Part shown: one piece after another, positions 2,077 through 62,402 of the stretch | Layout: every line of letters begins with the position of its first letter | How positions within the stretch are numbered: position 1 is the first letter of the stretch | DNA from: Eledone cirrhosa | Lineage: Eukaryota | DNA length: 64,000 bases | Reading direction: 5' to 3' | Assembly (NCBI GenBank): GCA_964016885.1 | Contig: OZ024753.1 | Coordinates: forward strand, 45,570,001 to 45,634,000 | Position numbers and translations under genes: made by a program | Notes under the pieces: model-generated | The model's input: the letters and a program-made list of their open reading frames with translations, nothing else | What the model was told of the DNA's origin: nothing | Database searches by the model: none

Positions 2077-2260
2077 CATTTTCCCCAATTCCATGCCGCC
2101 TGTCGTCTCAATCTATCTTATTGCTCATTCTTTCTTCTGATAAAGGACTAGCGTCCGAAACGTTAAGACCTTCTTTCTGCTATATCAAGCGTTAACCTAA
2201 TATATCCCTTGAATATACTGTACCGATTGTGTTGTTATTTCTGTTTACCTTTTACATTCA
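2077..2260 (+). mobile_element. Penelope-like pLTR 3' fragment (family H1) ending at (TA)n
   Basis: Minimal HHR motif followed by a tail (atcaagcgttaacctaatatat..tgtaccg) similar to the copies at 20.9 kb and 43.7 kb. Confidence 0.65.
2133..2168 (+). ncRNA. Minimal type I hammerhead ribozyme (core G8>A variant)
   Basis: TCTT-CTGATAA-A-GGAC(TAGC)GTCC-GAAA-C-GTT^AAGA. Stem I is TCTT/AAGA, stem II is GGAC/GTCC, and stem III is the loopless palindrome ACGT. Confidence 0.7.
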
Positions 2261-2379
2261 TATATATATATATATATATATATATATATATTTCACCGTA
2301 TTTTTTATTTTTGACTAAAGACATTTTTGCCTGATAATGGGGTTTAGAACCCTCAGATAAATGAAAAAAAGATGAGTAT

Positions 2380-2450
2380 TGACGTACATGGGAGTCGAAC
2401 CCACATCTTTGGTTATCCAGACCACTGTGCTACCATTACACCAACACATC
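2380..2450 (-). tRNA. tRNA-like cloverleaf (anticodon loop CTGGATA), inverted copy; probably a pseudo-tRNA or SINE head
   Basis: The reverse complement folds into acceptor, D, anticodon and T arms, with A-box TGGTGTAATGG and B-box GGTTCGACTCC. Confidence 0.55.
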
Positions 2451-2470
2451 ACTCAATGTGATATGTTGGT

Positions 2471-2541
2471 GATGTGTTGGTGTAATGGTAGCACAGTGGT
2501 CTGGATAACCAAAGGTGTGGGTTCGACTCCTATGTACATCA
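2471..2541 (+). tRNA. tRNA-like cloverleaf (anticodon loop CTGGATA); probably a pseudo-tRNA or SINE head
   Basis: Acceptor GATGTGT/GTACATC, D-stem GTGT/GCAC, anticodon stem TGGT/ACCA, T-arm GTGGG-TTCGACT-CCTAT. A TTTTT run follows about 10 nt downstream (Pol III terminator-like). Confidence 0.55.
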
Positions 2542-2769
2542 ATACTCATCTTTTTCCATTTATCTGAGGGTTCTAAACCCCATTATCAGGCTAAAATTTC
2601 TTTAGTCAAAAATACGGTGAAAGCTATTCTATTTTCTAATTTCAAACCTGCTCACTGTTTCAAAACATACTTACTTCTCATATATATATATATGTTTATA
2701 TATCGCCGTATTTCCTTTCTACTTGTGGGATATATAAATTTATATATATATATATACGATGAGAGGAGC

Positions 2770-2850
2770 TGCCCAAGGTGCCTAGCAGTGCGAGTCAACC
2801 AGAAATTACGTGGTTGCGCACACAATGTTAGCCTCACTGCGACATGACTG
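2770..2850 (-). mobile_element. Decayed tRNA-derived SINE head (family C)
   Basis: gcccaaggtgcctagcagtg...gtggttgcg resembles a reversed SINE tRNA region. A related + strand piece lies at 55231-55270. Confidence 0.35.
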
Positions 2851-4164
2851 TAACAAGATTCGATAAATAAACCAAATAATATACTAAGAAGAGGAATATT
2901 AATTATAACTGATAATATTATATTATATTTAAACACTGGAATTAGAGAATCTGATTAGAGGGACAATTACTATTAGTTTGAAGTATATGAATATTAACAT
3001 TATATAGCATAGAGACTGGAATGTTAGACGATTGTAGCAAAGTTAAGGTATAATTATATTAAAAACTACACTCTGAGCTAGAAATGTGAACATATGTATT
3101 AATACATGAACCATTCCAGTCAGAAAGTACAGTTTTGATATGATAGATTGAAAATTAATGCCAGAAATAAGATTATAGCTATATATATACACTAGTCGTC
3201 CTAGTCATAAGGTTCAGCTTTAATATAATAGATCGAAGGTTAATGAATTGAAAAGAAAATTTTGATAACACCACTACAATAAATACTCATTGATATATAG
3301 TAACAGATATAGATAGGATATATCATTTGTGGGAGGAGTACTGATACAATGAGAAAACTATTACAGCTTAAACGACATTGGATCAAGGAAAATACTTAGA
3401 TGTTGGAAACGATAGATTGATTAAATTAATTGTCTAGCATGAAAGAAAAGCATTTTTATCGATATACAAAAACATCAACAATATAATGTTAAAAAATGCT
3501 ATGTACACAGAAAAAGAAAAAAAAAATATTTAGATGAACACAAAATAATAAAACGTAAACAGCAAATTATGTATAAGGAGAGAGAAAAATATATTGAAAC
3601 AGAATGAGGATGAATTGAGGAGAAAAAAAAAGCTATCTACAGATAGTATTTTGCGAAACTGGGCAGGCACACACATAGACACATATGCATGCACACATAT
3701 ACATAGATACATATGAACGCATGCATACATATATACAGACACAAATACACAGAGAGGCAGAGAGAAAGGAATGTTTGAAGAGTGAACTGGCTTAAGATCT
3801 TTAAGGAACTGAAAGAAATGCAATATCTGATTTTATATATGTACGAGATCAAATACGTTGTCATAAATATATATATGTATGTTTTACAAAATATAAAACA
3901 TAAATATGTATAATGCAATCAGCCTGAAGCAGAGAGAGGTTATTGCACAGCTTGCAGAAGCTATCTCAGTGCAACAGTTCTCTATTAATATATCTCTGAA
4001 CCGATATTACATCCACATATCTGTGTTTAGGTATGGGCTTTAGACCCTGTTAACACAAACAGTGACAGCAACACCTTTTCCTGTTGTCATCACCATCCAG
4101 GAACTTTAACAGATTTCTGACATATGCCCAGACCCCCCCCTAAGAAAATCAATTAAAATAATGG

Positions 4165-59565: not shown

Positions 59566-59781
59566 GGTTTCTTACATAGGCACAAGGCCATCAATTTTTG
59601 AGGATGGGAAATTCGATTAAATCGACCCCAGTGCGTGACTGGTACTTTATTTTATCGACCCCGTAAGGATGAAAGGCAAAGTTAACCTCGGCGGGATTTG
59701 AACTCAGATCATAAAGGGACGTAACTCTATGCTGCAAAGCATGGCGTCCGACCCTCTACCCATACTGCCAATCCACCGTCC
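59566..59781 (-). mobile_element. Full-length SINE family A with 19-bp TSD
   Basis: TSD ttatacttggagtaataat at 59547-59565 and 59782-59800. Confidence 0.92.
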
Positions 59782-59798
59782 TTATACTTGGAGTAATA

Positions 59799-59887
59799 AT
59801 AAATCAAGAAAGAAGAGTGACATGGTTTGCTATACAATAAAGCCCTTATTGTATAGCAAACCATGTCACTCTTCTTTCTTGATTTAT
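59799..59887. mobile_element. Perfect 42-bp-arm palindrome abutting (TA)n
   Basis: ataaatcaagaaagaagagtgacatggtttgctatacaataa-agccc-reverse complement. Confidence 0.85.
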
Positions 59888-60849
59888 ATATATATATGTA
59901 TGTTATGAAATACTGTTAGCTTCTCGCTAAAACAATTTATATACCTTTCATTTATATATATATATATATATATATATATATAAACACACACACACATATA
60001 TATATATATATATATACACATACTTACACATACATATTTCTATTTGAATATACATATATGTGTATGAATATATATTTCTCTATATGTATATATATACATA
60101 TAATCATATATAATGAAAGTAATACAAAAACAAAACTTTTGACATTTTCTTTGATGATTGGAATGGCAAATAGTCACGATGAGTTGTAAAATCAATTAAG
60201 AGAATGGCATATTTCTTTACTAGAATTCATTAAAATATTAAAATATGGTGCAGTAATATTCCCCCACCCAACTCCTCCAGTCTCCAACTGGAGTGAAACC
60301 AATAAGAATTTGGTAAAACCAATAAGAATTGAAACATTAATTTTCAATTAAATATCGTAAAATTCTGTGCTTGAAAACTGCAATACATGAAGAGACAATG
60401 TGACATTTATGTGTCGCATATGATCATTATAGATGTCTCAACTATAATATCGTTGACCCGTGCAAACCAACGTATCTATCTAAATAATATTAAAAGTAGA
60501 ATTTTTTGTTTGTTTTTATGTCTTTGTATTGATGTGTTAAGACGGATACAAGATAGATTTCCAATCAATTCACTTGAACAAGCAAAATTATTGAATGATC
60601 ACTAATTGTTGTGTCATGTGGTGTTCAAAAGTATCGTCTGAATTATTTTTCAATTCATTTCATAATTGAGTTTTCCATTTAACTCACTGGAAAAGTTAGT
60701 CATGGCGAAATCGATATATACATACACCTCCACATACACACGCATCTTTATATATATATATATATATATATATATATATATATATAGGCACGCACACACA
60801 CACACACACCTCCATATGTCTATGAACTACACGATAACAACTCACAATA

Positions 60850-61300
60850 CACTCTTTAAAGTAGACAGGACAACCAGCCTGGTGTTCGTGCCACGATAAA
60901 ATACACTTTTTAGGGGACGGTTTGTATCGCATAAGGTGGTGGTTGAAAATTCCCAGTACTCTGTGTCGGGGCGTAATAAACCTTATGAAGGAAGACGAGA
61001 ACAAGAGGGACCTTTTATATACGTTCTGGCACATAGCTCTATCAATAAACACATCATTTTGAATTAGATTGTTATCAAATGATACTTTGTACTTGTTCTC
61101 TGTTTTGAAATATCTTACAGCGAGCAATCTTAGAAATATTGGAAATCTGTGAGAGTATATGGCTCAGAAAAAATGAAAATATCTGTACTTAATTTCTTAA
61201 TAGTGAATTTCTGTGTCAATGTTTTTGAAGAGGTAAATGTATTCTACTAGATGCATTGAGTACGATTTGTTCAGAAATGATTAAAAACATTTTTTATGAA
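60850..61300 (-). pseudogene. Possible second decayed Penelope-like RT fragment
   Basis: V.DIFIFS followed by KTENKYKVSFDNNLI...NVYKR resembles the PLE series YVDDIF / FT.E.E...FLD / VYRK. Confidence 0.35.
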
Positions 61301-62239
61301 AATTGGCTTATTTAATATTAAGATTGTGTAGACCTTAGCAACATATTTCATTAATGCATTAAACATAGTTTTCTAATTAAACCCATTTTAACGTATAACA
61401 TTTTCTTAAAATTCTAATTTAGTATATTGCATAGATTTGTCAAGTAAGTGTATAATATGAAATAACTTCCCCAAAGATATTCAAGAAACTTCGGTTGAAA
61501 CAAAAGATGAAGAATTGTTTCAGCAAATTTTTTTTGCAGTTGATTTAAAATATACCATATATTAACTGTTCATCTTGATAGTGACGTCTTGTTATTTTTC
61601 TTCTTTTCGTAGGAATAATCTAACATAATTAAAATGATAAATAGCTCTTTACTTTGATCTGTCTAATAATGGTACCACATTCGATTATATGATCGCTACA
61701 CATCAAAAAATACGACACTCATATTTAATTGCATATTAGAAGATGGGAAATTAGAAAGAGAGAAAGAAGGAAAACCGAGCGCATTTTTCTTATTTCTAAC
61801 GCCGTAACGTCATGATTGGTTTAACGAGGTTTTGTTAGTCTCAACGTTGGTGGACATTTTCCTTTGATGGTGCAATTTAAATCCCCACCATTGGGTATTC
61901 ATAAACACTAATAGAGAAAAAGATATGTACAAAAACATTCACTGACAAGGACTAAGCAATAATGACTACTACTACTAGGGTTAAAGATAAGCATGACTAT
62001 TTTTACATATACACTGACACTCACATACACTCACACCCATTCACACGCATCCACAGACACATACACACAAACACATACATACACATATATATATATATAT
62101 TTATATACATACACAAAATTAGGTTTAATTTACATTTTTATCTGTCGAATACAAAAAGGTTTTTTAGTAAATTTACTACACTTTCTCCCCCCCCCCTCTC
62201 TCTCTCTCTCTATATATATATATATATATATATATATAC

Positions 62240-62402
62240 GATATTAAATAAATGGAAATTATATTTATAAAACCATATTTATTTCATTATATATATTTCA
62301 GGGATATCATATTAAAAATATACTCCAAATACTTGTTGAGTGCTTTTATATCAGTTATAAATATTTACTCGTTGTAACCCAACAATTTAAATATAACTTT
62401 CC
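62240..62402 (+). mobile_element. Family H2 copy with internal inversion, in (TA)n
   Basis: 62240-62315 matches 12123-12198 directly, and 62316-62402 is the reverse complement of 12033-12120. Confidence 0.85.

What the first reader, a model, noticed from the sequence alone, without database searches (positions are those of the whole stretch)
2077..62402. Family of small ribozyme-bearing fold-back elements that colonise (TA)n microsatellites
Seen: at least 7 inverted-repeat inserts (2291, 12120, 28715, 41304, 44648, 49881, 59799) and several unpaired relatives (2077, 20521, 20925, 43715, 45905, 62240), nearly all touching (TA)n. Their primary sequences differ, yet they repeatedly carry hammerhead core pieces (CTGATGA; GAAAC..GTH). 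Established: Penelope-like elements have hammerheads in their pseudo-LTRs, often show inverted 5' pLTR copies, and some prefer simple repeats. Inference: these are ultra-short, non-coding PLE-derived units at roughly one per 5 kb, forming a diverse HHR-hairpin system. Transcribed copies would give long dsRNA hairpins that could be ADAR or Dicer substrates.
Basis: partly seen in the sequence, partly recalled or inferred. Interest (0 to 1): 0.75.

Follow-up and report, generated by a model that had tools for sequence, protein, structure and literature searches.

The report
Back-to-back Penelope ends, scrambled hammerhead
The hairpins are real: they are back-to-back tail ends of Penelope-like jumping genes and of short non-coding repeats sitting in TA repeats, likely copied from both ends of cut DNA, and one repeat family carries a self-cutting-RNA motif in a scrambled order that is predicted, not shown, to cut.

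Summary
The fold-backs, TA adjacency (12 of 13 elements) and density (about one insertion per 5 kb) are confirmed. They are not one family of tiny ribozyme units and not MITEs. They are 5'-truncated 3' ends of several Penelope-like element (PLE) families joined head-to-head, with variable centres and two fixed outer ends. This is the published inverted pLTR plus one-sided tail. Family B (12033) flanks an intact 745-aa RT/GIY-YIG ORF with Hydra-clade motifs; families E and G also follow PLE ORFs. Only 41304 holds a complete canonical hammerhead; the others are mutated, halved or lack one. Two families are non-coding tandems. A (2292) has a tRNA-like head and no ribozyme found. C (28718, 20521) carries hammerhead parts in S-G-C order with two extra helices. 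C's fold covaries across unrelated families and can be read in published cephalopod Naiad tails; cleavage is untested. I found no ADAR footprint, and expression is untested. This scan reported the PLE/TA system and the scrambled hammerhead before on other DNA of this genome; its notes held nothing like family A by sequence.

The parts
2077..2259 (+). Family F pLTR 3' end, single arm ending in (TA)16; minimal type I hammerhead with core G8 changed in this copy (core at 2137, GAAAC at 2157)
2292..2452 (-). Family A inverted arm with tRNA-like head (2379-2451)
2465..2679 (+). Family A direct arm plus tail to (TA)7; tRNA-like head 2470-2542; 260-bp tandem non-coding unit; no hammerhead found
12033..12301 (-). 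Family B long arm (with the 87-nt tail): pLTR of a Hydra-type PLE
12302..12481 (+). Family B short arm, ending at the internal end; minimal type I hammerhead about 12376-12441 with a rare core change shared by both arms (core at 12384)
20521..20824 (-). Old copy of a family C relative; scrambled hammerhead with one stem I strand deleted
20895..21078 (+). Decayed F/K-group pLTR end; not TA-adjacent; core degenerate
28718..28979 (-). Family C short arm (internal end); scrambled hammerhead with changes in stem I
28978..29298 (+). Family C long arm with 45-nt tail to (TA)10; 519-bp tandem non-coding unit
29158..29255 (+). Scrambled hammerhead: predicted cut after 29192, GAAA at 29209, core at 29236-29242; stems I and III, extra helices P and Q, kink-turn-like GA/GA; stem II at most one pair (mismatched in this copy)
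41304..41361 (-). Family D short arm with a complete canonical type I hammerhead (core 41356-41350, 8-bp stem I, 4-bp stem III)
41362..41499 (+). Family D long arm with hammerhead (one stem I mismatch) and tail
43684..43711 (-). Short inverted D-like piece joined head-to-head to a different family (possible mixed insertion)
43725..43845 (+). Family K (F-group) pLTR end with minimal hammerhead core, weak stem I
44571..44711 (-). Family E long arm (about 80-nt tail); 3' half of the hammerhead only
44713..44771 (+). Family E short arm
45905..45973 (-). Family G terminal segment, inverted; no overlap with the other arm
45966..46121 (+). Family G internal-end arm; GAAAC and palindromic stem III with a divergent core
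49882..50007 (.). 36-bp arms around a TA/TG microsatellite; no family or ribozyme found; unassigned
59786..59884 (.). Family I head-to-head pair, 3' of the family's hammerhead; the tail is interrupted by a SINE and resumes at 59502-59565
62240..62402 (.). Second family B insertion: short arm and long arm joined with almost no overlap, TA on both sides

Best explanation
These inserts are 5'-truncated 3' ends of several Penelope-like elements (PLEs) and of non-coding tandem repeats, joined head-to-head between (TA)n tracts, likely because a PLE enzyme cuts both strands of the TA repeat and each DNA end primes its own cDNA on the same RNA source at one of two fixed sites. Shown: the layout, two fixed outer ends, variable centres, same-family arms that share rare variants, links of B, E and G to RT/GIY-YIG ORFs, and Hydra motifs in B's ORF. 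Inferred: double priming, joining of the two truncated cDNAs, and trans-mobilisation of A and C by PLE proteins. A hairpin results when both cDNAs cover the same stretch; otherwise the result is a plain inversion (45905, 62240). Predicted and untested: family C's scrambled motif folds as a hammerhead and cuts after window 29192.
For: Layout: in 1.15 Mb of mostly query-selected loci, directly joined pairs are head-to-head and same-family in 176 cases, different-family in 5, and tail-to-tail same-family in 1. Pairs use one long and one short fixed end: E 41 of 46, D 20 of 22, B 8 of 10, G 13 of 22; C arms end at unit positions 325 or 280. The short arm reaches more than 10 nt further 5' than the long arm in G 11 of 13 (query-selected), D 5 of 20, E 4 of 41 and B 1 of 8, which fold-back copying of the long arm cannot make. 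Arms share variants above a between-locus control: A 18 vs 3.0, B 22 vs 0.9 (19 from one locus), D 8 vs 1.4, E 51 vs 12.5, C 2 vs 0.8. 36 shared variants in 87 pairs are rare elsewhere. ORF links: at L236, inverted B, a 745-aa open RT+GIY-YIG frame, then direct B; at L171, inverted E, RT and EN frames, then direct E; an EN frame upstream of G at L239. A purified PLE protein cuts and extends both strands and starts at two adjacent RNA sites that match the tail (PMC11167929). Scrambled motif: 10 of 28 pairs change on both sides in 20 C-like copies, and 17 of 21 in 13 copies spanning unrelated families, 0 of 500 shuffles in each.
Against: Most E (34 of 41), D (8 of 13) and B (5 of 8) pairs have inner ends within 10 nt of each other, which also fits fold-back self-priming, the reading of PMC3846280. 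Shared variants could come from conversion between arms after insertion. No ORF link was found for A, C, D, F, K or I, and 49881 is unassigned. No read or contig spanned a whole window palindrome. The copies were chosen by helix score, so their percentage paired is circular, and related copies inflate the shuffle test. In the window's own C subfamily the single stem II pair is A-A, and minimum-energy folding of the C motif is no better than shuffles (z -0.01), though that program cannot form pseudoknots.
Confidence: 0.8

Rival explanations
1. One cDNA is made, folds back at its truncated end and copies itself (or an antisense template self-primes) until it reaches the internal end.
For: Inner ends coincide within 10 nt in 34 of 41 E pairs, 8 of 13 D pairs and 5 of 8 B pairs. 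In 3 of 6 unselected A pairs both arms stop at the same position, a self-complementary word. Arms share rare variants. PMC3846280 reads junction palindromes as self-priming.
Against: It cannot give non-overlapping arms or a short arm that reaches further 5' (21 of 82 long+short pairs; window 45905 and 62240). E's 5' ends pile up at one structured spot of the ribozyme, so two independent cDNAs stalling there would also coincide.
Confidence: 0.12
2. The palindromes are MITEs or TIR remnants of TA-targeting DNA transposons.
For: They are inverted repeats flanked by TA.
Against: The centre differs between copies, the two outer ends are unequal, and many copies are single arms or direct tandems. 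The same sequence flanks RT/GIY-YIG ORFs.
Confidence: 0.02
3. The fold-backs are assembly or library artefacts.
For: No read or contig spanned a whole window palindrome.
Against: The arms differ at private sites (224 in 87 pairs) and end at family-fixed sites. Head-to-head joints of family B at many positions appear in contigs of two public runs of one sample, and one joint in 86 raw reads of another study.
Confidence: 0.02
4. The host keeps these hairpins as a dsRNA system for ADAR or Dicer.
For: Arms are 90-98% identical and fold-backs occur about once per 12 kb (32 in 390 kb), so any transcript across one would pair.
Against: The arms drift apart and the centres are random; no A>G excess or cluster was found in 409 copies.
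Confidence: 0.04

Closest known systems
EN+ Penelope-like element insertions with an inverted 5'-truncated copy and a one-sided tail (Craig 2021 PMC8557442; Arkhipova 2013 PMC3846280; Frangieh 2024 PMC11167929)
   Same: Head-to-head inverted copy, tail on one side only, partial tandems, AT-rich or microsatellite targets, hammerhead in the pLTR. Cervera 2014 (PMC4209133) notes opposite-strand hammerhead pairs 100-700 bp apart in Schistosoma.
   Different: Tails here are 45-105 nt against the published 30-40. Density is far higher: roughly 225,000 descriptor hits extrapolated from 30 in 399.6 kb, against about 9,000 in Xenopus in PMC4209133. Most insertions are only the two pLTR tips.
Hydra clade of PLEs, including Hydra-1_Obim (PMC8557442 section 11 and supplement)
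   Same: The L236 ORF has a C-terminal GIY-YIG, DKT, the CxCX5C linker, CxxC and CxH, and RWR where the clade has RWK. It has a (TA)n target and a canonical-type hammerhead.
   Different: No phylogeny was run; the match to Hydra-1_Obim was read by eye only. This element carries a 3' non-coding region of about 1.2 kb and an inverted pLTR.
Animal non-LTR retrozymes (PMC7229834; bioRxiv 10.64898/2026.07.22.740005)
   Same: Non-coding tandem units of a few hundred bp (C 519, A 260), proposed to be PLE-dependent.
   Different: C's ribozyme is not type I and A has none found; both show the PLE inverted-plus-tail footprint. Circular RNA was not tested.
Type-SGC non-circularly permuted hammerheads, HRIMA-1 (Eckert 2023 PMC10085705)
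   Same: S-G-C order, conserved CUGAnGA, GAAA and UH, stems I and III, short linker after stem I.
   Different: Stem II between blocks C and G is at most one pair here. An extra upstream strand forms helices Q and P, with a kink-turn-like GA/GA. The motif sits in an animal retroelement; the paper found SGC forms in no genome of a known organism.
tRNA-derived SINEs (recalled, not read)
   Same: Family A begins with a tRNA-like fold with A and B boxes.
   Different: It is a tandem permuted unit with several TA-primed 3' ends and inverted arms instead of a LINE-like tail; a T5 run directly follows the tRNA part.

Membership tests
EN+ Penelope-like elements | pLTR flanks an ORF with RT and GIY-YIG endonuclease | tested here: met
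   Met for B, E and G (EN only). Not found for A, C, D, F, K or I. My Pfam copy gave no hit on the L236 ORF; 12 of 17 homologues carry precomputed PF26215.
EN+ Penelope-like elements | Inverted 5'-truncated copy plus one-sided tail | tested here: met
   (B, C, D, E, G); A has several ends.
EN+ Penelope-like elements | Type I hammerhead in the pLTR | tested here: met
   Family level: B, D, F, K and I complete; E complete with a U3-A8-type core in 2 of 6 long copies. Divergent in G; absent in A; scrambled in C.
Hydra clade | DKT, CxCX5C linker, CxxC and CxH, RWK-type motif, C-terminal EN | tested here: met
   Read from the L236 translation against section 11; RWR instead of RWK.
Hydra clade | Placement in the RT phylogeny | not tested
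   No tree was built.
Non-LTR retrozymes | Non-coding tandem units | tested here: met
   C 519 bp, A 260 bp, D-core 77-bp arrays on C28.
Non-LTR retrozymes | Type I hammerhead in each unit | tested here: not met
   No type I hit in C or on the sense strand of A, even with relaxed cores.
Non-LTR retrozymes | Expressed as circular RNA | not testable with these tools
   No RNA holder listed.
Type-SGC hammerhead | Block order S-G-C with conserved core | tested here: met
   C79, A82, G84, A85, G52, A54 and T34 invariant in 13 of 13 (selected with at most 2 departures allowed).
Type-SGC hammerhead | Stems I and III with covariation | tested here: met
Type-SGC hammerhead | Stem II formed between block C and block G | tested here: not met
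   Only one pair is possible, formed in 9 of 13 and A-A in the window copy; the block G strand pairs with an upstream strand instead.
Type-SGC hammerhead | Site-specific self-cleavage | not testable with these tools
   Needs in vitro transcription.
MITE / TIR transposon | Fixed, equal terminal inverted repeats and constant internal structure | tested here: not met
MITE / TIR transposon | Target-site duplication | tested here: inconclusive
   Hidden inside (TA)n.
tRNA-derived SINE (family A) | tRNA-like head with A and B boxes | tested here: met
   Rfam tRNA 49.5 bits, ARAGORN; box A in 19 of 25 and box B in 22 of 25 query-selected copies.
tRNA-derived SINE (family A) | Pol III transcription | not testable with these tools
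   No RNA data.

The most novel reading that the evidence does not exclude
Family C and its unrelated look-alikes carry an active hammerhead of an undescribed wiring: S-G-C order, stem II rebuilt on an extra 5' strand, folded by a kink-turn. It is the missing ribozyme of Naiad elements and occurs in tens of thousands of copies here. Beside it, a tRNA-headed, ribozyme-free repeat (family A) would be a SINE-like passenger of Penelope enzymes.
Probability: 0.5. Interest if true: 0.8.

Novelty: new variant of a known kind. Interest (0 to 1): 0.52.

Why it matters
At one insertion per about 5 kb, however, it gives statistics on how PLEs integrate (two fixed start sites, same-source arms), a step that PMC11167929 leaves unvalidated. 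If the scrambled motif cuts, it adds a new natural hammerhead topology in animal genomes and overturns the statement that Naiads lack hammerheads; a single transcription gel can test it. Family A suggests PLE enzymes can move a tRNA-derived RNA that has no ribozyme.

Tried and rejected
Rfam E-value scan of the window: the top 150 of 310 rows shown were miRNA look-alikes, tRNA and three other weak hits. At gathering threshold only tRNA was found. The repeat finder was swamped by TA arrays. Mixed-family arms as the rule: rejected. Of 5 different-family head-to-head joints among 181, two are family B mis-assigned, two are old and ambiguous, and one is window 43684. Two more seen by eye lay outside the library (L237, L172). 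Inner ends at the ribozyme cut site: rejected for D and E, where they lie about 40 nt upstream. ADAR footprint: none. A hammerhead in family A, in any block order: none. An ORF joined to C2 or Z loci: none among 45 loci; the ORF pieces there looked like separate insertions. A family for 49881: none. Expression: no RNA holder listed, and a guessed RNA run laid nothing; neither is evidence. A fifth helix in C (columns 5-10 with 88-93) was weak (82% paired), shifts register in Z, and was dropped. In one search the C2 rows were flooded by a TA tail in my reference and were ignored. Library entry X was mis-cut (a LINE piece) and was removed from the density count.
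Full report
Setting. The window is G000:C13:45570001-45634000 of a 3.0-Gb animal genome, 32% GC and rich in TA, CA and satellite arrays. An octopus-like host is my inference, not a tool result. I recognised no host exon among the open frames I listed (read by eye, not scanned against a library).

Observation. All seven inverted inserts are present, with arms 90-98% identical. Twelve of the 13 listed elements end within 3 nt of (TA)4+; 7.7% of non-TA window positions lie within 12 nt of such a tract. 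In 40 evenly spaced 10-kb stretches I found 46 fold-backs. Fourteen belong to one satellite, and 21 of the other 32 touch TA against a 4.4% null. A type I hammerhead descriptor hit 30 times against 0-2 in 10 block shuffles, which extrapolates to roughly 225,000 genome-wide. Library hits give about one insertion per 5 kb (79 of 85 after removing a mis-cut entry). In the window the descriptor found one complete ribozyme (41356, minus strand) and one probable chance hit at 1655.

Families. Own-genome searches show that each insert except 49881 belongs to a repeat family with at least 40 scored relatives. The copies share a layout: TA, an inverted arm, a direct arm, TA. The centre differs between copies, and many copies are single arms or direct tandems, so these are not MITEs. 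One arm stops at the family's main end and the other at a fixed internal end 45-105 nt earlier: E 41 of 46 pairs, D 20 of 22, B 8 of 10, G 13 of 22; C at unit positions 325 and 280. Directly joined pairs are head-to-head and same-family in 176 cases, different-family in 5 and tail-to-tail same-family in 1 (loci mostly selected by my queries).

Link to coding elements. L236 holds inverted B, a 745-aa open frame with RT and C-terminal GIY-YIG motifs, about 1.2 kb of non-coding DNA, then direct B stopping at the internal end. It has 17 homologues at 33-39% identity and the Hydra-clade motifs listed in PMC8557442 section 11, whose supplement lists an octopus Hydra family inserting in (TA)n. L171 shows the same layout for E, and an EN frame lies upstream of G in L239. 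B, E and G in the window are therefore truncated tips of coding PLEs. A (260-bp unit) and C (519-bp unit) are non-coding tandems with the same footprint.

Mechanism. The arms of one insertion share variants well above a between-locus control in A, B, D and E, and barely in C. Thirty-six shared variants in 87 pairs are rare elsewhere, while 224 are private to one arm. Both arms thus come from one source and then age separately. In 21 of 82 long+short pairs the short arm reaches further 5' than the long arm (11 of these are query-selected G copies), and window 45905 and 62240 have little or no overlap. Fold-back copying cannot produce that; two primings can. PMC11167929 shows a PLE protein cutting and extending both strands and starting at two adjacent sites that define the tail. 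Against a single mechanism, most E, D and B pairs have inner ends within 10 nt, which also fits self-priming as PMC3846280 proposed; a shared stall point in the structured ribozyme would give the same pattern (inference). The window's B copy has the same rare core change in both arms, consistent with cleavage being dispensable, as in vitro. The analogy with L1 twin priming is recalled, not read; a search for it together with Penelope listed three unrelated papers.

Reality of the joints. Contigs of two public runs (one sample) show family B head-to-head joints at many positions, and raw reads of another study show one joint in 86 reads. Nothing spanned a window locus.

Family C's motif. C has CUGAUGA with no GAAA downstream. 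Other notes suggested the extra strand, the kink-turn and the Naiad link. In 20 C-like copies, 10 of 28 pairs change on both sides (0 of 500 shuffles). A scan using only stems I and III found an unrelated sequence (L073). Its family Z turned out to keep the same spacing and also the two extra helices and the GA/GA, with different letters. Across 13 representatives, 17 of 21 pairs change on both sides (selected by helix score, so the 93% paired is circular). The order scan hits 3 times in 399.6 kb against 1 hit in 20 shuffles in total, and one 32-nt subfamily word occurs 1,160 times (control 0). By eye, the same strands, helices and GA/GA are at the 3' end of Naiad_Ovul and of the entry before it (by file order Naiad_Obim) in the supplement of PMC8557442; I did not see them in Naiad_Omin, the third tail on that page. 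It is not a formal type-SGC member: stem II between blocks C and G is one pair at most (9 of 13; A-A in the window copy). The kink-turn label rests on a recalled consensus. Cleavage is untested, and plain folding gives no signal.

Family A. A tRNA-like head with A and B boxes in 19 and 22 of 25 copies sits in a tandem unit with inverted arms and several TA-primed ends. No hammerhead in any order was found. The scan's notes hold no look-alike by sequence, and a word search showed none among 8 listed.

ADAR and Dicer. Shared variants are A>G 9 vs T>C 11, and none of 409 copies has an A>G cluster. Expression was not testable.

Literature seen. PMC8557442: passages, section 11, supplement hits and part 24 of 59. 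PMC11167929: parts 1-2 of 4. PMC4209133: parts 1-2 of 4. PMC3846280, PMC10085705 and PMC7229834: passages. bioRxiv 10.64898/2026.07.22.740005: part 1 of 5 and passages; its supplements are closed. I did not read the supplements of PMC10085705, which may show variants with a split stem II. Searches that listed no description of this wiring in animals, or of a tRNA-headed PLE passenger: (listings only; most subscription papers are not covered).

Verdict. The finding as posed is a known PLE footprint at unusual density (confidence 0.8 including the double-priming step). The less ordinary parts are the scrambled hammerhead in two of the listed elements and the tRNA-headed passenger. Interest 0.52; new variant of a known kind.

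Noticed in passing
   Followed up: partly
window 33515-33676 (-) and 22097-22177 (-): More pLTR-like ends (F/K group and library family V) near TA tracts.
   Followed up: partly
G000 C28 about 30.50-30.59 Mb (L111-L125): The family D hammerhead is amplified as a roughly 77-bp tandem satellite over about 100 kb.
   Followed up: no
L237 about 6300-8620; L172 8600-8960: Head-to-head joints between different families: an EN-bearing element joined to family I, and another ribozyme family joined to an A relative. Rare, but they suggest two RNAs can sometimes be used.
   Followed up: partly
window 46022-46069; L057, L136: Family G keeps GAAAC and a palindromic stem III with a divergent core word conserved across subfamilies; a possible hammerhead core variant.
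   Followed up: no
L139:396-493 (+): A third, unrelated sequence with the scrambled-hammerhead spacing and a G at position 15.1.
   Followed up: partly
window 35408-36740 (-): 5'-truncated LINE RT frame (RTE-like by my reading) abutting a TA-rich array.
   Followed up: no
window 638-768, 4157-4366, 8443-8920, 31998-32194, 39108-39216, 46259-46432, 51050-51315, 59559-59775, 62511-62595: An abundant SINE-like family that is not TA-anchored (12 of 211 3' ends at TA); a useful negative control.
   Followed up: partly
window 818-947; 32195-32397; 59082-59125 with 59909-59952: Other inverted pairs: one centred on (ATA)n, one with a 114-nt spacer, one 784 nt apart next to TA.
   Followed up: no
window 23240-24695: 56-bp satellite, 26 copies at 97% match.
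   Followed up: no
window 8945-9002 (+): Weak tRNA-like hit (31 bits), probably a SINE head.
   Followed up: no
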